Source: a virus (lineage: Duplodnaviria > Heunggongvirae > Uroviricota > Caudoviricetes). From it: a DNA stretch of 28,031 nt. Position 1 is the stretch's first letter. Each line of letters starts with the position of its first letter. Where the stretch lies: IMG/VR virus record IMGVR_UViG_2740892212_000023, one strand, 5' to 3'. The translations under genes were made by a program, and so were the position numbers. Positions 17,134 through 26,885 of this stretch are shown here, one piece after another. Below the pieces are notes generated by a model that made no database searches, was not told where the DNA came from, and saw only the letters and a program-made list of their open reading frames with translations.

Positions 17134-18483
17134 ATGGCTACGTGGCAACAGGGTATTAATTCTGGTGGTTTTCTGGCTGGCATCGGTACGCAAAATGAGA
17201 ATGCGCCAAAGGCAAGCGACATTAACGCAACGCTTGGTCTGATCCGCGAAAACAATGAACTGGCTCGCTCAGGTGCAAATAACGTTGGCCTGACCGCGTT
17301 ACGTGGTCTGGCTGGAGTTGCTGATATTTACAATCAGGAACAGCAACAGAAAGCTATTAGTGCGTTCAATAAGGTTCACGCTGATGCATGGGCTTCTGGT
17401 GATCCATCGGGACTATTTAAGTTTGCCCAGGAAAATCCAGCGTTTGTTGCACAGGCACAACAGGCGTTTTCTGGTCTTAATGAGCAGCAACGCAACGATA
17501 TGGGCGATTTAGCCATGAGGGCTAACGTCGCTCTTTCTCAGGGACCGGAAGCCTACAGTAAATTCATTACTGACAACAAGGACAGGTTAAATCGCGTTGG
17601 TGCTAATGCTGACTGGATGATTCAGACAGGTATCCAGAATCCAGAGCAGCTATCACACATGCTGACTACGATGTCTCTCGGTGCGCTTGGGCCAGAAAAG
17701 GCGTTTGCTGTTCAGGACAAGATGGTTGGTCGCCAGCAGGAGCAGCAAAGAATTAACGAAACCATTCGCAATAATGACATGACGAATGCGAGGGCTATTA
17801 GGGGGCAGGATCTTTCCTATAAGGCTCAAATGGCAAGACTGAATCACGACAAGTATGTGTTTAAGCAGTCACAGGCGGCCCTTGAAAGAGCAGGACAACT
17901 TCAGGATATGGATGTTTTGTCTCTTAACTCACAGATAGCAGCGACGGGAATTGATCCTCTAACCGGTAAAGCTGCAACGTCAGCCAGAATGTCTCAGGCT
18001 AAGAGATGGCTTGATGGCAACAATAATTACAACAATGCGTTGATTACTGGTGAGCGAGGGATAGAGAAAATAGATTCTTTGCTTGGTAAGAAGGAGCTTG
18101 AAGGTATCGGTCGCTTCGAAGGAAGAAATATAGATGGCTTCACAAGTGCTGAAGGGCTTGCAAACCGTAATGCGATAGAAGAATTAAAGTCGGGTGCGTT
18201 TGTCCAGAACGTGCAGACTATGCGAGGTATGGGTAGCCTCTCCAATGCTGAAGGCCAAAAACTGGAAAACCTGATCGCGAAACTCGATATAACACAGCCT
18301 GAAGAGGTCGTCAGAAAACAGTTATCTGAAATCCGATCGCAATATTCTGTATTTCAAAAGGTTGCAGCAAGGGAGGCTGAATCAATGGGATATAGTTCAT
18401 CAGGTTATGACACATATGTTAGTGAGCGAAAATCAGGAAGCGACAGCAATAAGTCCGGTTTCTCGTCTTTATGGGGTGATTAA
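17134..18483 (+). CDS. Ejection protein, P22 gp20-like
   Basis: 449 aa, in the gp20 position and of similar size. Confidence 0.75.
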
Positions 18484-20651
18484 TGGCTAAAGCATGGAAA
18501 GATGTTATCGCTTCTCCACAGTATCAGGCGTTAACTGAAGAACAGAAAGCACAGGCTCAAGCGCAATATTTTGATGAGGTTGTTGCCCCTAAGGCTGGTG
18601 ACAAATGGGCTGAAGCAAGAGATCAGTTTTATGCAGCATACCCTCCACCTCAGCAGCAGAAAGAAGAACCATCATTGATGCAACAAGCTGGTGATTGGCT
18701 CACAGGTGGTCAAAGTGCAGGGCAAATTGCAGAACAGGCTGGTCGTGGTCTGGTAAACATACCATTTGACGTATTACAGGGTGGCGCAAGTCTGATTAAT
18801 GCAATCAGTCAGGGGCTTGGTGGGCCAAAAGTATTGGATGATGTCTATCGTCCAGTCGATCGACCGACAGACCATTACGCGCAAGCCGGTGAAACAATTG
18901 GCGGGTATCTCCTGCCAATTGGTACAGCGGCAAAAGCTGCTGGAGCGCCAGCAAAGCTCGCTGGAGATATCGGTTCCGCAGGAAACATGATTACAGGTTC
19001 TCTTGCTGATGCTGCAAATCAGGAGGGCGACTTTGCACAAAATGCTGCCATTAACGGTGGTATAAATATTGGTGCTCAGGGGATACTTTCTGGGGCTGGA
19101 AGGATCTTAACCTCTAAATCACCTCAAGTTCTTGGTGGCGGGGCAATAAATTCCGCTGCTGATGTTTCGAAAATGGCAAAGTCTGGTACAGGAAGAGAGA
19201 TTATTGCCAGACAGTCAGCTAATGTGTCAGACGAAATAGCAAAAGCAGCAGATACTGCTGGAATAGATATCAACGCATTAACTCCTGGCATGAGATCAGG
19301 TAGTCGTGGTCTTGCTCAGGCGGAGGGGATTCTGGCGTCAAAGCCCGGAATTACACAGGATGCACACACCAAAGCATTCAGTGAAATAGAGTCGAAATTT
19401 AACTCAGCATTGGATGAGTTTGGGGCTGAAGCAGGAACTGCATCAGAAAAAAGTGCAGCCATAAAACAAAGGGTTTTGGCAAGTATTGATAAAATGAAAA
19501 ATTCAGAAAAGGCCGCATGGGATAGCGTCCGCTCCACGATGCCTGACGCAAAGGCCAGAATGTCAAACCTGAACGCTACAATTCAGGGTGATATTTTGGC
19601 CGGCATGCCGCTAACTCCTGAGATGAAACAATTCGCATCTGCTTATGCTAAAACTAGTAAAAAAGGAATCACGTTTGATGCCATGAAGGCATGGCGAAGT
19701 AAACTTGCTGACGCAGAGCAGAAGTATATAAGGTCTGGTGAGGCAAATACGGCAAGGCGCATGGCTGAGCTTCGTGATGCAGCAACGGAAGATATGCGCA
19801 TAATGGCTCAAAATGGCGGTTTTCTTGATGACTGGCAAAAAGCTAATGATCTGTCAAAAGCAAGATTTACAGCACAAGAACAGGCTGAAGCAGCGTTTGG
19901 TAGAGACCTTGCAACTGATCAGTTGGTAACTAATGGCTCTAAGGCGTTGCAGGGTTCAGCAAAAAGTGGAACAGGTCAGTTCCATAAAATAATAAGCGCC
20001 CTACCTGAGTCGGAACGCGCGCCAGCAATTGCATCAATATTACAAGATGCGGTATCGCAAGGGGTACGCGGAGGTAAGTCTGAAGAGGCTGGAATTAAGC
20101 ATATCGCGACTATTCTTACCCCACAAAACGTGAAGGCAATTAGTCGATATTCTCCAGAGCTTGGTAGGATTGCCAGGGGGTTTGGAGAACTTGCAAGAGC
20201 AGCAACAAAGCCACTTCGATATGTTGAACAAACAGGGCGCTCTATGCCAGCCATTAGCACTCTTGAGAATGGCCTTCATCCAGTTTTAGAGAGCGTATTG
20301 TCTGGCGCTTTTCCAACCGCTGGCGCTATCGCAGGGTTCTCTGGAGGAGGTGTTATTGGAGCAATAGTGGGTGGCGCTGCAGGTGGAGCAATTGATGCAA
20401 TAGCAAAAGGATCGATAGCGAAATTATCCGCAACCAGAAGTGGTCGTTACGCTATTGAAAAGGCTGTTCAAGAGGCGACAAAGGCAGTTAAAGTTGGGGC
20501 AAGTGATGGCGCATTAGCGGCGGCGGAACGCAGATTTATGGCAAATAAGGCCGCCGTAAAAGCAATTCGCGATGCACTAGGAAACGAAGAGTTCCAGCGT
20601 TTGTCGAGGGCTGGGATTGTGGCATCGCTAAGCGGAATGGCACAGGATTGA
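18483..20651 (+). CDS. Ejection protein, P22 gp16-like (longer than P22 gp16)
   Basis: 722 aa, in the gp16 position. Gly/Ala-rich C-terminal segment. Confidence 0.75.
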
Positions 20652-20668
20652 GGTGACGCCATGGATGG

Positions 20669-21118
20669 CTATTTTTTAAGGTAATAATCATCAAAATCGC
20701 AAGAAGCGGATATCACAGAACTTGAATCCATAGAAAAAGACAGGGTTTCGCATGCCTTTCCGGCCTGATGATATGCATGGATATCACCGGATACATATCC
20801 TCCTGTAGAAAACAACGATTTTTCACCGTTTTTTTCTACAAGAATGTGCTTATCTGAATCATTAATAAACCAAATGGAAATAGAGTGACTTTCGCCAAGG
20901 TCTGTTCTATTGAACACCTTAGGTTGGGTACCCTTGACAGCATTTTCGGCTCGCATAATCAGTTCAGCGCTTTTTTTGCTATTTTTTTGTTCTGTATAGA
21001 TTTTGTCTGCCACAAAATAAACAATGGCAATGGCTAACAAAGATAGGGAAATCAGCAATGCCTTTTTAATCAATTTTTTGGCATCCCTGTAAATCTCAAC
21101 TGATAATTTTTCACTCAC
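20669..21118 (-). CDS. Small membrane-anchored protein of unknown function (sieA-position moron)
   Basis: Minus-strand ORF 20669..21193. Likely start is GTG 21118 preceded by AAGGAGG; ATG 21193 is the alternative. One N-terminal TM helix (ALLISLSLLAIAIVYFVA) then a ~110-aa extracytoplasmic domain. AT-rich compared with the structural genes. Confidence 0.5.
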   Translation of the reverse strand: MSEKLSVEIYRDAKKLIKKALLISLSLLAIAIVYFVADKIYTEQKNSKKSAELIMRAENAVKGTQPKVFNRTDLGESHSISIWFINDSDKHILVEKNGEKSLFSTGGYVSGDIHAYHQAGKACETLSFSMDSSSVISASCDFDDYYLKK

Positions 21119-21183
21119 ACCAACCTCCTTAGTTTTGTGCAGGATACCAGATGATAATGTGTAGTTGGAGTAGCGCGGTTGTA

Positions 21184-21277
21184 ATGCAAGCATTTTGTTT
21201 TGGTTTTATGCTTGCTTGTATGTGTGTACAGTGCATATAATGCAAGCATACATCACAATAAAGGTGCTTGCATTATG
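21184..21277 (+). promoter_or_regulatory. Promoter with four copies of a 10-bp palindromic operator-like motif ATGCWWGCAT
   Basis: Motif at 21184-21193, 21208-21215 (partial), 21240-21249 and 21265-21273. -35 TTGCTT (21212-21217), 18-bp spacer, consensus -10 TATAAT (21236-21241). The copies overlap the -35, the -10/+1, the RBS/start of the downstream gene and the alternative start of the divergent gene. Confidence 0.55.
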
Positions 21278-22267
21278 ACTGAAAAGAAAAGTGGCGAAGG
21301 GAAAGCTAAGGGCGGTATCGCTCGCGCAAAGTCGCTGACTAAAGAGCAGCGTTCTGAAATAGCAAAGAAAGCAGCGGCTGCAAGATGGAAGGATAAACCA
21401 TTAATTGCTACGCATAAGGGATCGTTCCAGCATGAATTCGGGATTGATGTTGAGTGCTATGTGTTAAATGATGATAACAAAACTGCCGTTATTAGCCAGA
21501 GAGGCATGGGAGAAGCGATTGGTCTTGGCGAAGGTGGCAGCAGGTTGCCAAAGTTTATTCAGGGGAAAACTATTTCTCAGTATATCGGGCATGAATTAAG
21601 GGCAAAACTTGAAAATCCTCTTATTTTTCAATACAAACAGGCGGGCACGAACACTCCAGCTAATCCTGTAATACATGGCTACGATGTAACAATATTAATT
21701 GATTTATGTCGAGCAATCTCTAATGCTAAAGCTGAAGGTAAGTTGCTTTCCAGTCAGGAAGGGATTGCTAAGCAAGCCAGAATCATTATTGATGCATCAG
21801 CCAAGGCGGGCATTCAGGGGCTTGTTTATGCTTTGGCAGGGTATGACAGAACAAAAGAAGAGGTAATTCAAGCATATAAGCGATATGTTGCTGAAGAGGC
21901 TCGTGAGTATGAAAGAGAGTTCACCCCTGAACTTTATGAGCATTGGTATCGTCTGTATGGTATAGACAAACCAGTTAGAGGGCGACCATGGGCGTTTAAA
22001 TATCTTACGATAGATCACATTTATTACCCATTAGCCAGAAGTGAAGGAAAGGTATTTAATTTAGCAAAAACGTCAAAAGAAGAAAAAGGCAGCAAAAACG
22101 ATAAAATACACCAGTTTTTATCAGAGGTTGGAGTTAAGGCTCTTAGAACCCAAATAGGTAAGGTTACTGGTATTGCAATGGTTTCTGATACTCGAGAAGA
22201 GTATGAGAAATACATAGATGAAAAGGTTATTGGACAAAGAACCATAGACTTAAAAGATAAAGAATAA
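21275..22267 (+). CDS. Conserved phage protein with a basic N-terminus (…GGIARAKSLTKEQRSEIAKKAAAARW…); I attribute it to the P63C-domain family from memory
   Basis: ATG 21275 within ORF 21200..22267, giving 330 aa. The N-terminal motif and the following ATHKGSFQHEFGIDVECYVLNDDNKTAVISQRGM block resemble P63C-family proteins. Function unknown. AT-rich. Confidence 0.6.
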   Translation: MTEKKSGEGKAKGGIARAKSLTKEQRSEIAKKAAAARWKDKPLIATHKGSFQHEFGIDVECYVLNDDNKTAVISQRGMGEAIGLGEGGSRLPKFIQGKTISQYIGHELRAKLENPLIFQYKQAGTNTPANPVIHGYDVTILIDLCRAISNAKAEGKLLSSQEGIAKQARIIIDASAKAGIQGLVYALAGYDRTKEEVIQAYKRYVAEEAREYEREFTPELYEHWYRLYGIDKPVRGRPWAFKYLTIDHIYYPLARSEGKVFNLAKTSKEEKGSKNDKIHQFLSEVGVKALRTQIGKVTGIAMVSDTREEYEKYIDEKVIGQRTIDLKDKE

Positions 22268-22320: not shown

Positions 22321-22857
22321 TCAAACAACCCACCAGTTTGCCTGATTGGATGCCAGCCTTGCAGTTTTTATGGAATTAATTATGCCATGCTCAAGAGCCT
22401 TGTTAGCATCCAAAATGGTCGAGTCTGCTATCAGGGATGCCCACCTAATATGGGTTCCGATGTCGATATTGAACGTCTCAACGAAGCGATCAAGATCGTT
22501 ATCGAGGCATTTCCCGTACTCTCTCAATCTGGCATGGTCGGCGGCTGGGGAGGCAAAGCACCATAATAGAGGATGTAACAGGAATCTTGATAATGGGTTT
22601 GCGAAACGTTCTGAGCCAGCCAGGAAAACGATATTAGCTATGGATTCAACATTGCTTATGTTGTGAGTTCTAACGGTAACAGGGAGTGACTTAAGAAAGT
22701 TATACGCAGTAAAGCCAGCGGCAGTTTCCCCTCCCTGACTTGATATATGGATATTTAATTCAGTTGCGCCTTGAGATAATGCGGTGAGACAGTGGTTCTG
22801 AAGTTGCCCAACAGTGGCAGTGTTAACGGGGCATAAGAAATGAATTGTGTGCAGCAT
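22321..22857 (-). CDS. ClpP-family (S14-like) serine peptidase homologue, 178 aa
   Basis: Co-linear with the ClpP core: …NIHISSQGGETAAGFTAYNFLKSL…ISNVESIANIVFLAGSERFANPLSRFLLHP…DANKALEHGIINSI (ClpP: …YINSPGGVITAGMSIYDTM…[32 protein letters not shown]…SAPEAVEYGLVDSI). Candidate Ser, His and Asp triad positions are conserved. Its start overlaps the stop of the upstream Mnt-like gene. Confidence 0.7.
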   Translation of the reverse strand: MLHTIHFLCPVNTATVGQLQNHCLTALSQGATELNIHISSQGGETAAGFTAYNFLKSLPVTVRTHNISNVESIANIVFLAGSERFANPLSRFLLHPLLWCFASPAADHARLREYGKCLDNDLDRFVETFNIDIGTHIRWASLIADSTILDANKALEHGIINSIKTARLASNQANWWVV

Positions 22858-23105
22858 TATTTTTCATCCTTAGCATACATGGTCTTTAGCGTCTCAAGCA
22901 GCGCCTCTTTGAATTTGTCAGCTTCTTGCTGAGCAAATGACTCAACTGACTTTGGCGACCTATCTTCATCAATCGCGGCTTGCAAAATCATGACGATCTC
23001 GGAGTTAACAGAGCGACCATTTTTTGATGCTCTGACAGCAAGAGCCTCGCGTAAAGATTCAGGGATTCTTACCGTAGTTGGAGAAATTGACACACCCTTT
23101 GCCAT
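22857..23105 (-). CDS. mnt: Mnt-like ribbon-helix-helix repressor
   Basis: 82 aa from ATG 23105 (MAKGVSISPTTVRIPESLREALAVRASKNGRSVNSEIVMILQAAID…), compared with P22 Mnt …FRMPMEVREKLKFRAEANGRSMNSELLQIVQDAL…. Divergent from the arc/ant genes as in the P22 immI region. Confidence 0.75.
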   Translation of the reverse strand: MAKGVSISPTTVRIPESLREALAVRASKNGRSVNSEIVMILQAAIDEDRSPKSVESFAQQEADKFKEALLETLKTMYAKDEK

Positions 23106-23128
23106 ATCACACCTTTGGTATTCAATTT

Positions 23129-23219
23129 GATAGCAAAGTGTATGCAAAAAAATTTTGACTAGATATACTCACTTTGCTATCTTTTGTATTCGAAAAGAGT
23201 TGTTTGTGTGGAGGGTAAC
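23129..23219. promoter_or_regulatory. Divergent immI-like promoter/operator region
   Basis: Perfect 12-bp inverted repeat GATAGCAAAGTG (23129-23140) and CACTTTGCTATC (23170-23181). Between and after them: -35-like TTGACT (23155-23160), 17-bp spacer, -10-like TATCTT (23178-23183), then GGAGGG RBS before ATG 23220. Confidence 0.5.
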
Positions 23220-23391
23220 ATGGAGAAAGAAATAAGTAAGATTTTGGTAAGGATGCCGCAGTCGTTAAAGGATGCCGCAGTCGTTAAAGGATGCTATAGG
23301 TAGCAGGGCAAAGGAAGAGTGCAGGTCGTTTAACTCAGAGGTTATCAAGCGCCTGATAGACAGCTTGAAGAGAGAGGGGGTAATGGTATGA
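23220..23391 (+). pseudogene. arc: arc homologue (ribbon-helix-helix) disrupted by a 19-bp tandem duplication
   Basis: As it stands the frame is MEKEISKILVRMPQSLKDAAVVKGCYR* (stop at 23301). Removing one 19-bp unit restores MEKEISKILVRMPQSLKDAIGSRAKEECRSFNSEVIKRLIDSLKREGVMV, Arc-like (P22 Arc …RWPREVLDLVRKVAEENGRSVNSEIYQRVMESFKKEG…), ending in an ATGA overlap with the next ORF. Confidence 0.7.
23252..23294 (+). repeat. Tandem direct repeat, 2 × 19 bp (GATGCCGCAGTCGTTAAAG) plus a 5-bp partial third copy
   Basis: Units at 23252-23270 and 23271-23289, then GATGC at 23290-23294. The period is not a multiple of 3. Confidence 0.9.
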
Positions 23392-23591
23392 GTAAAGAAT
23401 GTTGTTTCTGCGGCATTAGCGAATCAGACGCTGATCAAACATACATTTACTCTAAAGAAACAGGTCGGATGCTGTGTAGTGACTGCGTGTTGGACATCAT
23501 AAGATACAAGCATCTTGGATGTTCTGCCAGCATTAGCAATATAGGTGAAGTATATGAAGGGAAAGATATAACTGATAGAGCAGAAAGTTGA
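23388..23591 (+). CDS. Small Cys-rich protein (putative zinc ribbon), 67 aa
   Basis: Two CxxC pairs (CCFCG…CSDC). ATG 23388 overlaps the stop of the reconstructed arc frame. P22 has no gene between arc and ant. Confidence 0.45.
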   Translation: MSKECCFCGISESDADQTYIYSKETGRMLCSDCVLDIIRYKHLGCSASISNIGEVYEGKDITDRAES

Positions 23592-24532: not shown

Positions 24533-24550
24533 CAGATAACCAACGCAACG

Positions 24551-24576
24551 ACCCAGCTTCGGCTGGGTTTTTTTAT
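24551..24576 (+). terminator. Rho-independent terminator after ant
   Basis: Hairpin ACCCAGC-TTCG-GCTGGGT followed by a T-run. Confidence 0.7.
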
Positions 24577-24632
24577 GCCCAAAATTCACCGTAGCCATGC
24601 TGCGGCGATTCATTGTATCTGGAGCAAATTAA

Positions 24633-26795
24633 ATGACAGACATTACAGCCAATGTTGTAGTGAGTATGCCTTCGCAACTCTTCACTATGGCGAGTTCTTT
24701 TAAAGCTGTTGCCAATGGAAAAATTTATATCGGTAAAATTGACACTGACCCGGTAAATCCTGAAAACCAGATTCAGGTTTATGTGGAGAACGAAGACGGC
24801 TCTCACGTTCCTGTTTCGCAACCAATCATCATTAACGCTGCTGGATACCCGGTATATAACGGGCAGATTGCAAAGTTCGTAACTGTGCAAGGCCATTCTA
24901 TGGCTGTTTATGACGCATATGGTGCACAGCAGTTCTATTTTCCTAATGTGTTGAAGTATGAGCCGGATCAATTAAGGTTGGAGCTTGAATCATCTGGTGG
25001 AGCAGGATTGATAGGTGGTGTTTCGAAGCCTATTACTTTTTTTGGTGCTATTGGTGATGGATTAACAAACAATACGCAGGCATTTAACGATGCAGAGATA
25101 TCGGAATTCAATGACATATACATTCCTGATGGTATTTATAATGTAAATAATATTAACTTAAATAAGAGATATTGGGGGCCTGGCATAGTAGTGATTAATT
25201 ACCAGACTAAATATTCTGGCTCTGGTGTTAACGACATGACCGTGTCAGGAATATACAATGGACAGCAAGATCTAAATGCAATTGTAAGAATAAAAGAAGC
25301 TTCAAATCCTGATAAGCTTGAATTCAGTACAGATAATGGAGTTACATGGCGTGACACGATAGACGTGTACAACCCAATCGATGACAGTGTATCTCAGCAA
25401 CCAATCGTAATACTTGCAGGTGGGGTGGATTTTTTCGTAAGTGGATTGAAGATAAACTTTTCTTCAACCACTGGACATACAGTAAATGACTCATGGTCAT
25501 TTTTCATTCCTTCCAATCCATCAGTAATAAACACAGGAAGTGGCAGCATCGTTAAATCAGGAAGCGTTATTTTTAATGTTAGCGGAAACAATGATACTAA
25601 TACTTCCGCTGGAAAAGACTCATTAGGCGGTGGAAACGTAGGAGCTAACAATACCGCATATGGGTGGAAGAGTTTGCACTCAAACACTACAGGATACGCA
25701 AATACCGCGTCTGGGATTCAGTCTATGGAAAACAATAAGACTGGTAAAAACAATTGTGCATACGGTGCTGATTCTCTAAGAGCTAACGTATCTGGTTCTG
25801 ATAACGTAGCGGTTGGGGTTTTTGCGTTATGTGCAAACACAACAGGCTACGGTAATACTGGTATTGGTAATGATACTAACAGGTATAACAAAACAGGATT
25901 TGGGAATACTGCGGCAGGTGTGCAGGCCTTGTATCACAACAGTGCTGGTAATGAGAACACCGCTTTTGGTGAATATGCGTTACGTGGCGGTAATTCCAGT
26001 TTTCCTACGGGGGTGTCTATCCAGTATTGTGTTGCGGTAGGGGCTAAGTCGGGTTTCAACGCGTTAGGTAATAATAATACAGCTATAGGTTACGAGGCGC
26101 TATATTCTGCATCAGGATCTGATAATGTTGGTATTGGATTCGATGCAGGGTTTAAAGTAACGGCTGGATCTTTCAATGTATTTTTAGGTTCTAATTCTGG
26201 TAACGTGTCAGAGCAGGCTACAGATGTGACAAACTGCGTCCTTCTCGGAGATAATACAAAATCAACCGGAAGTAACGCAGTAGCTATCGGTAGTGGGGTA
26301 ATTGCCGCTCAGAATACTGTAGCTATAGGTAATAGTGAGCATGAATTATTCTTTCATTATGGGAAAATTACACCACAAATTGATAATGCTTTTGATATTG
26401 GTGGGCCGGATGCGAGATATAAAACAATATATGCAACTACAGGAATGATAAATACATCAAATGAAATGTTGAAAACAAAACTAACAGACATTGATGTTGC
26501 TGAAAAAAAAGCTGCACTAGAAATAAAAGATAATATTAAAAAGTTTAAGATGCTGGATTCTGTTGAGGTAAAGGGATTTGATGGTGCTAGGTGGCATTTT
26601 GGTGTTGGAGCTCAAACTGTTGGTAATATAATGAGGAAGCACGGACTTGATCCTAGTAAGTATGGGTTTTGGTGTCACGATAAAACGCATCGCGAACACA
26701 TGACTGGAAATATAGATATCTTTTGTGAAAGTTATGGTATAAGATATGACGAACTTGCAATGTTTATATTGGCATCAATATCTTTATGTGAATAA
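24633..26795 (+). CDS. Tailspike protein: P22 gp9-type head-binding N-terminus, G/N/T-rich repeat receptor-binding region, C-terminal S74-like intramolecular chaperone
   Basis: The N-terminal ~115 aa resemble the P22 gp9 head-binding domain ([11 protein letters not shown]…[33 protein letters not shown]…). The central region carries about 15-aa repeats of the form N(T/N)A.G…AL…N..G. The C-terminus begins SNEMLK (Ser-x4-Lys spacing as in S74 autoproteolytic chaperone domains). AT-rich after about 24950. Confidence 0.85.
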
Positions 26796-26865
26796 ACTTT
26801 GTAAATGAAGTGAATTGCAAATCCTTGTACTTGATTGCAAGGCTTTGTGCTCTTCGATAATGGTT

Positions 26866-26885
26866 AAGGTGGATCACTCCACCTT
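26866..26885. terminator. Hairpin at the convergent tailspike/integrase junction
   Basis: AAGGTGGA-TCAC-TCCACCTT followed by TTT on the + strand. Overlaps the 3' end of int. Confidence 0.4.

What the first reader, a model, noticed from the sequence alone, without database searches (positions are those of the whole stretch)
24633..26795. Chimeric tailspike: P22 head-binding domain fused to a repeat-rich receptor-binding region and an S74-like self-cleaving chaperone
Only the N-terminal ~115 residues resemble P22 gp9. The rest is AT-rich DNA encoding G/N/T-rich periodic repeats and a C-terminal domain starting SNEMLK at 26457, whose Ser-x4-Lys spacing matches the autoproteolytic chaperone of endosialidase-type tail fibres. 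This implies a horizontally acquired host-range module and a released C-terminal fragment of about 112 aa.
Basis: partly seen in the sequence, partly recalled or inferred. Interest (0 to 1): 0.55.

Follow-up and report, generated by a model that had tools for sequence, protein, structure and literature searches.

The report
Mosaic P22-type tail fibre, self-cleaving chaperone

Summary
ORF 24633-26795 encodes 720 aa. Residues 1-113 are a P22 head-binding domain (Pfam E 1e-65; 72% identical to P22 gp9). The rest is AT-rich DNA (GC 0.32-0.44, against 0.47 for the window). Residues 327-560 are 61% G/N/T/S/A with a 17-residue period. Ser609 (codon at 26457) begins a Peptidase_S74 intramolecular chaperone.

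The chaperone call rests on a Pfam score above threshold, PDB hits (family profile E 1e-37 to 1e-26), a fold match to K1F endoNF, T5 pb1 and phi29 gp12 chaperones, and all five residues of the published cleavage mechanism (D584, R595, T608, S609, K614). Cleavage itself is inferred: it would give a 63.8 kDa mature protein and a 12.8 kDa, 112-aa fragment.

Horizontal acquisition is supported. The cassette (residues 114-720) occurs at 76-86% identity on other anchors in a G7C-like podovirus, a Nouzillyvirus siphovirus and a 58-kb contig. In APEC O2-211 it sits, identical at synonymous sites, on a diverged P22 anchor.

Phage CUS-3 is a published precedent for the architecture. Verdict: new member of a known kind, low to moderate interest.

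The parts
24550..24569 (+). Terminator-like hairpin (GACCCAGC-TTCG-GCTGGGTT followed by a T run) after the antirepressor gene, just upstream of the fibre gene
   Evidence: Consensus scan; sequence read. Function was not tested.
24621..24635 (+). Shine-Dalgarno GGAG (24621-24624), an 8-nt spacer, and the ATG start codon (24633-24635)
   Evidence: Read directly from the sequence.
24633..24971 (+). P22-type head-binding (tail-anchoring) domain, residues 1-113
   Evidence: Pfam PF09008 covers 1-113 of 113 profile positions, E 1.1e-65. PDB hits to Sf6 gp14, P22 gp9 and HK620 have E 1e-63 to 1e-44. It is 72% identical to P22 gp9, and 90-95% identical at DNA level to anchors in 1125 E. coli genomes.
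24972..25031 (+). Linker and recombination joint, residues 114-133 ([20 protein letters not shown]), where similarity to P22-like tailspikes ends and similarity to the ST4/P817/P0004 fibres begins
   Evidence: The megablast match to P22-like phages ends at nt ~345 of the gene, and the match to ST4/P817 begins at nt 366. The BLASTP alignments start at residue 114. The CUS-3 alignment is identical through PDQLR.
25032..25187 (+). Cap and first rung of a pectate-lyase-type beta-helix, residues 134-185 ([18 protein letters not shown]...[10 protein letters not shown])
   Evidence: A family profile of this region hits only the N-terminal caps of Sf6 tailspike, phi29 gp12, phiAB6 tailspike, a beta-1,3-glucanase and mannuronan epimerases, E 3e-8 to 6e-4, at profile positions ~8-64. 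PF12708 profile positions 3-52 are matched in 5 of 28 relatives.
25188..25610 (+). All-beta domain of unknown fold class, residues 186-326, with a single Asp-box (STDNGVTW, residues 231-238)
   Evidence: AF2 models give strands with pLDDT ~80-90 over much of residues 133-293. There is a weak BNR hit (E 0.09). Profile search found no solved relative. Against other phages, dN/dS is 0.08-0.28.
25611..26243 (+). G/N/T-rich 17-residue repeats, residues 327-537, modelled as a YadA-like (trimeric-autotransporter head type) beta-roll
26244..26456 (+). Endosialidase-type C-terminal stalk (expected triple beta-helix), residues 538-608, carrying D584, R595 and T608 of the cleavage site
   Evidence: Pfam End_tail_spike matches profile positions 91-160 only, at 30.7 bits against a cut-off of 25. 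It aligns to the stalks of K1F endoNF, T5 pb1 and Kp7. In the monomer model, residues ~570-613 have pLDDT below 50, which is expected of an intertwined trimer.
26454..26459 (+). Predicted scissile bond Thr608|Ser609 (ACA TCA)
   Evidence: It aligns to T5 pb1 Thr1263-Ser1264 and to endoNF Ser911, and the mechanism is described in PMC4690869. T608 and S609 are each conserved in 27 of 28 relatives.
26457..26795 (+). Peptidase_S74 intramolecular chaperone (auto-processing) domain, residues 609-720, plus the stop codon; catalytic dyad Ser609/Lys614
   Evidence: Pfam PF13884 scores 23.4 bits in the whole protein and 27.5 bits in the isolated domain, against a cut-off of 22. The family profile hits PDB entries 7y5s, 9vvr, 3gw6, 6eu4, 3gud and 4uw8 at E 2e-37 to 2e-26. 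Foldseek gives probability 1.0 to 3gw6, 4uw8 and 3gud, and 0.97-0.99 to the MyRF ICA domain.
26823..26842 (+). Weak terminator-like hairpin in the 78-bp gap between the fibre gene and the convergent integrase gene
   Evidence: Consensus scan, with only 3 GC pairs and a poor T run. Weak evidence.

Best explanation
The gene encodes the single receptor-binding protein of a P22-like (Lederbergvirus-type) prophage. It is a homotrimeric tail fibre or spike assembled from exchangeable modules.

Residues 1-113 are the conserved P22 head-binding domain, which docks the trimer on the tail hub. From residue ~114 onward the protein is a horizontally exchanged cassette, in this order:
- a short pectate-lyase-type cap;
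- a small beta domain carrying an Asp-box;
- a YadA-like beta-roll made of 17-residue G/N/T-rich repeats;
- an endosialidase-type triple-beta-helix stalk;
- a C-terminal Peptidase_S74 intramolecular chaperone.

The proposed mechanism is as follows. The chaperone trimerises first and templates folding of the upstream stalk. Once the stalk is correctly intertwined, Arg595 of a neighbouring chain, together with Asp584 and Thr608, completes the active site. The Ser609/Lys614 dyad then cuts the Thr608-Ser609 bond, releasing a 112-aa (12.8 kDa) fragment and leaving a 608-aa (63.8 kDa) mature protein.

What is shown: the domain content, the homologies, conservation of the mechanistic residues, and the mosaic history. 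What is inferred: trimerisation, cleavage, and receptor binding. The receptor-binding part looks adhesin-like rather than depolymerase-like. This sub-claim is weaker, at about 0.55.
For: - The ORF and its coordinates are confirmed.
- Anchor: PF09008 E 1e-65, with PDB hits limited to residues 1-119.
- Backbone: 55-66% of the upstream 24.6 kb is 94-96% identical to P22-like phages E212, CUS-3 and Kapi1. Gene order is antirepressor, fibre, then integrase, as in CUS-3.
- Chaperone: PF13884 scores above its cut-off. The family profile hits six solved chaperone-bearing fibres at E 2e-37 to 2e-26. The fold match has probability 1.0.
- Mechanism residues: window D584, R595, T608, S609 and K614 align with T5 pb1 D1239, R1250, T1263, S1264 and K1269. 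Across 28 relatives they are conserved in 28, 24, 27, 27 and 27 sequences respectively. Asn at +1 (SNEMLK) has a precedent in endoNF itself, which reads S(A)NGERK.
- Cassette exchange: 77% identity to the ST4 fibre and 76% to the P817 fibre over residues 114-720. ST4 is G7C-like, P817 is a Nouzillyvirus, and P0004 lies on a 58-kb contig with a tape-measure gene. All three carry a Tail_spike_N anchor instead of a head-binding domain.
- Window against APEC O2-211: dS is 0.20 in the anchor and 0 over residues 214-720.
- Purifying selection on the cassette: dN/dS 0.06-0.28.
Against: - No experiment: cleavage, trimerisation and receptor are all inferred.
- Pfam S74 is only just above threshold for this copy (23.4 against 22), and the motif lacks the usual Asp and Arg (SNEMLK where relatives read SD-x-R-x-K).
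- The AF2 models are monomeric and of moderate confidence (pLDDT 68-71; repeats ~65-78), so the YadA-like assignment rests partly on a model.
- The window's own YadA_head Pfam score is below threshold.
- The family profile found no adhesin head in PDB by sequence at E <= 0.01.
Confidence: 0.8

Rival explanations
1. The cassette is an enzymatic depolymerase tailspike. On this reading, the cap plus repeats form a narrow right-handed beta-helix with a polysaccharide-cleaving site, as in P22, Sf6 and HK620, and the adhesin-head resemblance is only generic solenoid similarity.
Against: The profile similarity to beta-helix enzymes ends after ~55 residues. The best structural matches are adhesin heads at 21-32% identity, whereas depolymerases reach at most 12%. 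The Pfam repeat family recovered is YadA_head. No sialidase or other catalytic family was found.
Confidence: 0.25
2. The S74-like domain is a degenerate, non-cleaving C-terminal trimerisation domain that stays on the mature fibre.
For: The motif SNEMLK departs from the SD(E/A)R(L/Q)K seen in 25 of 28 relatives. The Pfam score is barely above its cut-off. The chaperone is the most diverged segment, less than 60% identical to anything in the phage collection.
Against: All five residues assigned a role in catalysis are present. EndoNF, the prototype that does cleave, also has Asn at +1. Relative P0007 reads SNEEMK, so the variant recurs. Fold and profile matches are strong.
Confidence: 0.1
3. The gene is a decaying remnant in a defective prophage and makes no functional protein.
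For: It is rare, with the full gene in only 2 of 5426 complete E. coli genomes. Prophage activity was not assessed.
Against: The 720-codon ORF is intact with a good ribosome-binding site. dN/dS is 0.06-0.28. Its protein is 98-100% identical per segment to the APEC O2-211 copy (identical over residues 114-720), and a 97%-identical cluster holds 47 member sequences. The upstream virion genes are 94-96% identical to those of P22-like phages E212, CUS-3 and Kapi1.
Confidence: 0.05

Closest known systems
Endosialidase tailspike of P22-like prophage CUS-3 (siaK1; CP000711)
   Same: The genome slot is the same: antirepressor, tailspike, then integrase. The end architecture is the same: Head_binding 1-113, then End_tail_spike stalk, then Peptidase_S74. 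The anchor is near-identical through ...PDQLR, and the stalk plus chaperone are 28% identical.
   Different: CUS-3 has the endosialidase N-terminal extension, beta-propeller and beta-barrel (PF12218, PF12217, PF12195). The window protein has none of these and instead carries a cap, a small beta domain and YadA-like repeats. CUS-3 also has neuO between the spike and int.
Tail fibres of Escherichia phages ST4 (G7C-like N4-type podovirus) and P817 (Drexlerviridae, Nouzillyvirus), and metagenomic P0004
   Same: The whole cassette, residues 114-720, is homologous: 77% (ST4), 76% (P817) and 86% (P0004) identity. Against P0004, residues 214-613 are 90-100% identical per 50-residue block (mostly 94-100%). 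All have the same stalk and an S74 chaperone.
   Different: They are anchored by Tail_spike_N (PF18668) rather than the P22 head-binding domain. Their chaperones read SDERLK, are only 53-59% identical, and lack ~14 residues in the hairpin. They are annotated only as 'tail fibers protein' or 'hypothetical protein'.
Intramolecular chaperones of K1F endoNF (3gw6), T5 pb1 (4uw8) and phi29 gp12 (3gud)
   Same: The fold matches (Foldseek probability 1.0). Also shared are the Ser-x4-Lys dyad, the upstream Asp/Arg/Thr, and the WHFG motif.
   Different: Sequence identity is only 24-30%. The cargo domains they fold are unrelated: sialidase, a bullet-shaped domain, and a beta-helix respectively.
YadA-like head domains of trimeric autotransporter adhesins (UspA1, BpaC, EibD, BoaA, YadA)
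   Different: The repeat is 17 residues long. There is no signal peptide or beta-barrel membrane anchor, and the C-terminus is an S74 chaperone. The window copy scores below Pfam's cut-off. The protein is phage-borne and is not a member of the adhesin family.

Membership tests
P22-like tailspike head-binding domain (Pfam PF09008) | Full-length profile match above the gathering score, at the N-terminus | tested here: met
   219.4 bits against a cut-off of 24, residues 1-113 matching profile positions 1-113. 72% identical to P22 gp9.
P22-like tailspike head-binding domain (Pfam PF09008) | Encoded as the last virion gene of a P22-like genome, next to the immI/ant region and int | tested here: met
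   Bro-N/P22_AR_C antirepressor lies upstream and the integrase downstream. Upstream DNA is 94-96% identical to E212, CUS-3 and Kapi1. The order is the same in CUS-3.
P22-like tailspike head-binding domain (Pfam PF09008) | Binds the tail hub as a trimer | not testable with these tools
   Needs virion structure or biochemistry.
Peptidase S74 / intramolecular chaperone auto-processing domain (PF13884) | Profile match above the gathering score | tested here: met
   23.4 bits in the whole protein and 27.5 bits in the isolated domain, against a cut-off of 22. 27 of 28 relatives match.
Peptidase S74 / intramolecular chaperone auto-processing domain (PF13884) | Catalytic Ser and Lys five positions apart at the domain start | tested here: met
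   S609 and K614 align with T5 S1264/K1269 and with endoNF S911/K916. Each is conserved in 27 of 28 relatives.
Peptidase S74 / intramolecular chaperone auto-processing domain (PF13884) | Upstream Asp, neighbouring-chain Arg, and Thr preceding the Ser, which complete the active site only in a folded trimer (PMC4690869) | tested here: met
   D584 (28/28), R595 (24/28) and T608 (27/28). Their spatial arrangement was not tested.
Peptidase S74 / intramolecular chaperone auto-processing domain (PF13884) | Chaperone fold (helical core plus beta-hairpin tentacle), preceded by a triple-beta-helix stalk | tested here: met
   Foldseek probability 1.0 to 3gw6, 4uw8 and 3gud. End_tail_spike profile positions 91-160 match immediately upstream. 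The model is a monomer, so the intertwined stalk itself is not modelled.
Peptidase S74 / intramolecular chaperone auto-processing domain (PF13884) | Autoproteolytic release of the C-terminal domain | not testable with these tools
   Needs expression of wild type and S609A, with SDS-PAGE or mass spectrometry.
Endosialidase (GH58) tailspikes | Catalytic beta-propeller (PF12217), beta-barrel (PF12195) and N-terminal extension (PF12218) | tested here: not met
   None were detected at E <= 1, whereas CUS-3 scores 775, 157 and 127 bits in the same search. Only the C-terminal stalk part of PF12219 matches.
Pectate-lyase-type right-handed beta-helix depolymerase tailspikes | N-terminal cap motif | tested here: met
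   Profile hits to the caps of Sf6, phi29 gp12 and phiAB6 spikes.
Pectate-lyase-type right-handed beta-helix depolymerase tailspikes | Long beta-helix body homologous beyond the cap | tested here: not met
Pectate-lyase-type right-handed beta-helix depolymerase tailspikes | Catalytic acidic residues / glycan-cleaving activity | not testable with these tools
   No reference alignment exists to map a site. An enzyme assay is needed.
Trimeric autotransporter adhesins (YadA-like head, PF05658) | YadA_head repeats above the Pfam cut-off | tested here: inconclusive
Trimeric autotransporter adhesins (YadA-like head, PF05658) | C-terminal beta-barrel membrane anchor and secretion signal | tested here: not met
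   The C-terminus is an S74 chaperone and the N-terminus is a phage head-binding domain.

The most novel reading that the evidence does not exclude
Probability: 0.3. Interest if true: 0.45.

Novelty: new member of a known kind. Interest (0 to 1): 0.25.

Why it matters
It is a clean, well-resolved example of receptor-binding-protein modularity. One cassette appears on four anchor and virion backgrounds. Joints lie at the anchor/RBD hinge, near residue 213, and right after the chaperone's scissile serine (between residues 609 and 613).

Practically, the cassette is confined to avian-associated E. coli and phages in the records seen here: APEC O2-211, a chicken isolate, and a phage from poultry-farm sewage. 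It could therefore mark a particular surface receptor useful for phage or tailocin engineering.

The adhesin-head-like receptor-binding region has no solved or characterised representative that I found. Its structure and receptor would fill a small gap. Nothing here challenges current understanding.

Tried and rejected
- Endosialidase reading: rejected. No propeller, barrel or N-terminal extension domains were found, and the Pfam 'End_tail_spike' hit covers only the stalk part of the profile.
- Classical depolymerase beta-helix: not supported beyond the ~55-residue cap.
- NCBIfam: no hit for the protein.
- PDB profile search of residues 120-326: nothing beyond the cap.
- Whole-family profile against PDB: no adhesin head found by sequence at E <= 0.01. 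The adhesin-head similarity therefore rests on the model and on Pfam hits in relatives.
- Literature searches for phage P817 found nothing, and PMC10408124 does not mention P817 or ST4. No serogroup or receptor could be attached.
- I considered typing the O-antigen of the two host genomes, but had no reference sequence to search with, and n=2 would be weak.
- The apparent 14-aa 'insertion' in the window's chaperone is better read as a deletion in ST4/P817, because Kp7 (7y5s), 6eu4 and 9vvr have residues there too.
- PADLOC found nothing for the neighbouring ClpP-like and Arc-like genes.
- The minus-strand ORFs overlapping the gene were ignored as by-products of the long + strand frame.

Full report
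**1. The observation**

GGAG lies at 24621-24624, 8 nt before the ATG, and a terminator-like hairpin at 24550-24569 closes the preceding gene.

The DNA is AT-rich. Gene segments have GC 0.32-0.44 and GC3 0.15-0.34, against 0.474 for the whole window.

Residues 321-560 are 61% G/N/T/S/A. Sequence identity autocorrelates at 0.24 at lags 17 and 34, against a background of ~0.07. Seven clean 17-residue units (G-x-x-S/A-L-x-x-N-x-T/S-G-x-x-N-T-A-x) span residues 327-445. Invariant Gly and Asn residues recur every 17 positions across 28 relatives.

The Ser codon of SNEMLK is at 26457-26459. That is Ser609, with Lys614 five positions on, and Ser609 to Glu720 is 112 aa. All elements of the observation are confirmed.

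**2. The ends of the protein**

Pfam gives three hits:
- Head_binding, residues 1-113, E 1.1e-65.
- End_tail_spike, residues 538-608, 30.7 bits against a cut-off of 25. Only profile positions 91-160 match, which is the stalk, not the catalytic part.
- Peptidase_S74, residues 609-672, 23.4 bits against a cut-off of 22. The score rises to 27.5 bits when the domain is scanned alone.

Against solved structures, similarity to P22 gp9, Sf6 gp14 and related P22-like tailspike structures stops at residue ~119. Identity to P22 gp9 is 85 of 118 residues.

The C-terminus hits Klebsiella phage Kp7 fibre 7y5s, 6eu4, 9vvr, T5 pb1 (4uw8), the K1F endoNF chaperone (3gw6) and phi29 gp12 (3gud). With a profile of 28 relatives, these hits strengthen to E 2e-37 to 2e-26.

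An AF2 model of residues 114-720 (mean pLDDT 68) recovers the chaperone fold by Foldseek. Probability is 1.0 to 3gw6, 4uw8 and 3gud, and 0.97-0.99 to the MyRF ICA domain 7dc3.

**3. Is the chaperone catalytically competent?**

The T5 pb1 structure paper (PMC4690869) assigns roles to five residues. Ser1264 is scissile. Lys1269 activates it. Arg1250 of a neighbouring chain sits between Asp1239 and Thr1263 and forms the oxyanion hole, so cleavage requires a correctly folded triple beta-helix.

The gap-free alignment maps these residues to window D584, R595, T608, S609 and K614. All five are present. Across the 28 relatives they are conserved in 28, 24, 27, 27 and 27 sequences respectively.

The window motif SNEMLK differs from the common SD(E/A)R(L/Q)K. 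However, endoNF itself reads S(A)NGERK, and relative P0007 reads SNEEMK.

Self-cleavage at Thr608|Ser609 is therefore the expected outcome. It would give a 63.8 kDa mature chain and a 12.8 kDa fragment. This step is inferred, not shown.

**4. The middle of the protein**

It is not an endosialidase. CUS-3's propeller, barrel and N-terminal extension score 775, 157 and 127 bits, and none is detectable in the window protein.

A family profile of residues 120-326 matches solved proteins only over its first ~55 positions. These are the FGAxGDGxTNxTxAF...IYxPxGxY cap and first rung of pectate-lyase-type helices, as in Sf6 tailspike, phi29 gp12 and phiAB6 tailspike.

Residues ~186-326 form a well-predicted all-beta domain with one Asp-box (STDNGVTW) and no recognisable relative.

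- BoaA: 29% identity.
- YadA: rmsd 1.2 Å, 32% identity.

Pfam YadA_head matches 21 of 28 relatives. The window copy is sub-threshold, and the family profile finds no adhesin head in PDB by sequence.

My reading is an adhesin-like fibre rather than a classical enzymatic spike, held at about 0.55.

BFVD hits show the same repeat fold in many viral proteins, including proteins annotated with an S74 or intramolecular-chaperone domain. The repeat fold itself is therefore not unusual in viral proteins.

**5. Mosaic history**

The head-binding part occurs in 1125 of 5426 complete E. coli genomes. The full gene occurs in only two: APEC O2-211 at 99.3% and a chicken isolate at 98.6%.

In the phage collection, nt 1-345 match P22-like phages at 89-94% (listed hits). 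Nt 366-1703 match only phages ST4 and P817, at 85%.

At protein level, residues 114-720 are 77% identical to the ST4 fibre and 76% to the P817 fibre. A metagenomic protein, P0004, is 86% identical.

The backgrounds of these three differ:
- ST4 is a G7C-like N4-type podovirus.
- P817 is a Drexlerviridae Nouzillyvirus.
- P0004 lies on a 58-kb contig next to a tape-measure gene.

All three use a Tail_spike_N anchor.

Within the cassette there are further joints. Against P0004, identity is 68-72% over residues 114-213 and 90-100% per 50-residue block (mostly 94-100%) over residues 214-613. It then drops to 55-59% right after the scissile Ser, between residues 609 and 613. The synonymous divergence (dS) tells the same story: 1.7, then 0 to 0.39, then saturated.

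Against APEC O2-211 the pattern is reversed. dS is 0.20 in the anchor, 0.015 over residues 114-213, and 0 over residues 214-720. The same cassette therefore sits on two diverged P22-type anchors.

dN/dS of 0.06-0.28 indicates a functional protein.

**6. Context and comparison**

The window is the late and immI end of a P22-like prophage. Of the upstream 24.6 kb, 55-66% is 94-96% identical to E212, CUS-3 and Kapi1. The order is a Bro-N/P22_AR_C antirepressor, the fibre gene, then a convergent tyrosine integrase.

CUS-3 has the same slot and the same end architecture, Head_binding ... End_tail_spike, Peptidase_S74. Its anchor is near-identical, and its stalk plus chaperone are 28% identical.

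Exchange of receptor-binding domains among Lederberg-, Gamaleya- and Nouzillyviruses, among others, is described in PMC10408124.

RefSeq already annotates the APEC O2-211 copy as 'phage tailspike protein'.

**7. Verdict**

The refinements are:
- The receptor-binding part resembles an adhesin head rather than a depolymerase.
- The cassette is itself a finer mosaic, with a joint right after the scissile Ser, between residues 609 and 613.
- The architecture has a direct published precedent.

It is a new member of a known kind, of low to moderate interest.

Noticed in passing
window 22321-22857 (-) and 22857-23147 (-): A ClpP-like serine protease ORF (PF00574, E 2e-11) lies immediately downstream of an Arc-like ribbon-helix-helix ORF, in the immI-like region between the ejection genes and the antirepressor. 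There is no PADLOC hit. The related APEC O2-211 prophage carries different genes at this position. It may be a moron or accessory module.
   Followed up: partly
window 21275-22264 (+): A P63C-domain protein (PF10546, E 1e-8) of ~330 aa sits in the same accessory region. Its function is unknown.
   Followed up: partly
window 18483-20648 (+), 20669-21193 (-), 23388-23588 (+): A 722-aa ORF (probably an ejection or DNA-transfer protein, judging by position), a 174-aa ORF and a Cys-rich 67-aa ORF all lack any Pfam hit.
   Followed up: partly
window 24633-24971 against L003 6001-6339: Essentially all divergence between the window's gene and the APEC O2-211 copy lies in the head-binding domain (dS 0.20). 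Over residues 214-720, dS is 0 (0.015 over residues 114-213). This indicates recent transfer of the cassette between diverged P22-type backbones, or recombination within the anchor.
   Followed up: yes
window 26457-26471 against L004 (P0004): The recombination joint with P0004 falls between residues 609 and 613, right after the scissile Ser. The two are identical through ...TTGMINTS, then 55-59% identical afterwards. This suggests that the S74 chaperone is exchanged as its own module.
   Followed up: yes
L005 4045-4908 (-): A family-2 glycosyltransferase gene lies near the gene for P0007, the relative whose chaperone is closest to the window's. It may be an O-antigen modification gene.
   Followed up: no
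window 26796-26873; L006 7105-7237: CUS-3 carries neuO, with 19 heptanucleotide repeats, between its tailspike and int. The window has only a 78-bp gap there, with a weak hairpin at 26823-26842.
   Followed up: partly
model m53fc84214aed (window residues 114-570): BFVD fold hits include giant-virus proteins with the same repeat fold: a Tupanvirus 'Peptidase S74 domain-containing protein', a Bodo saltans virus FhaB-like protein, and medusavirus and marseillevirus proteins.
   Followed up: no
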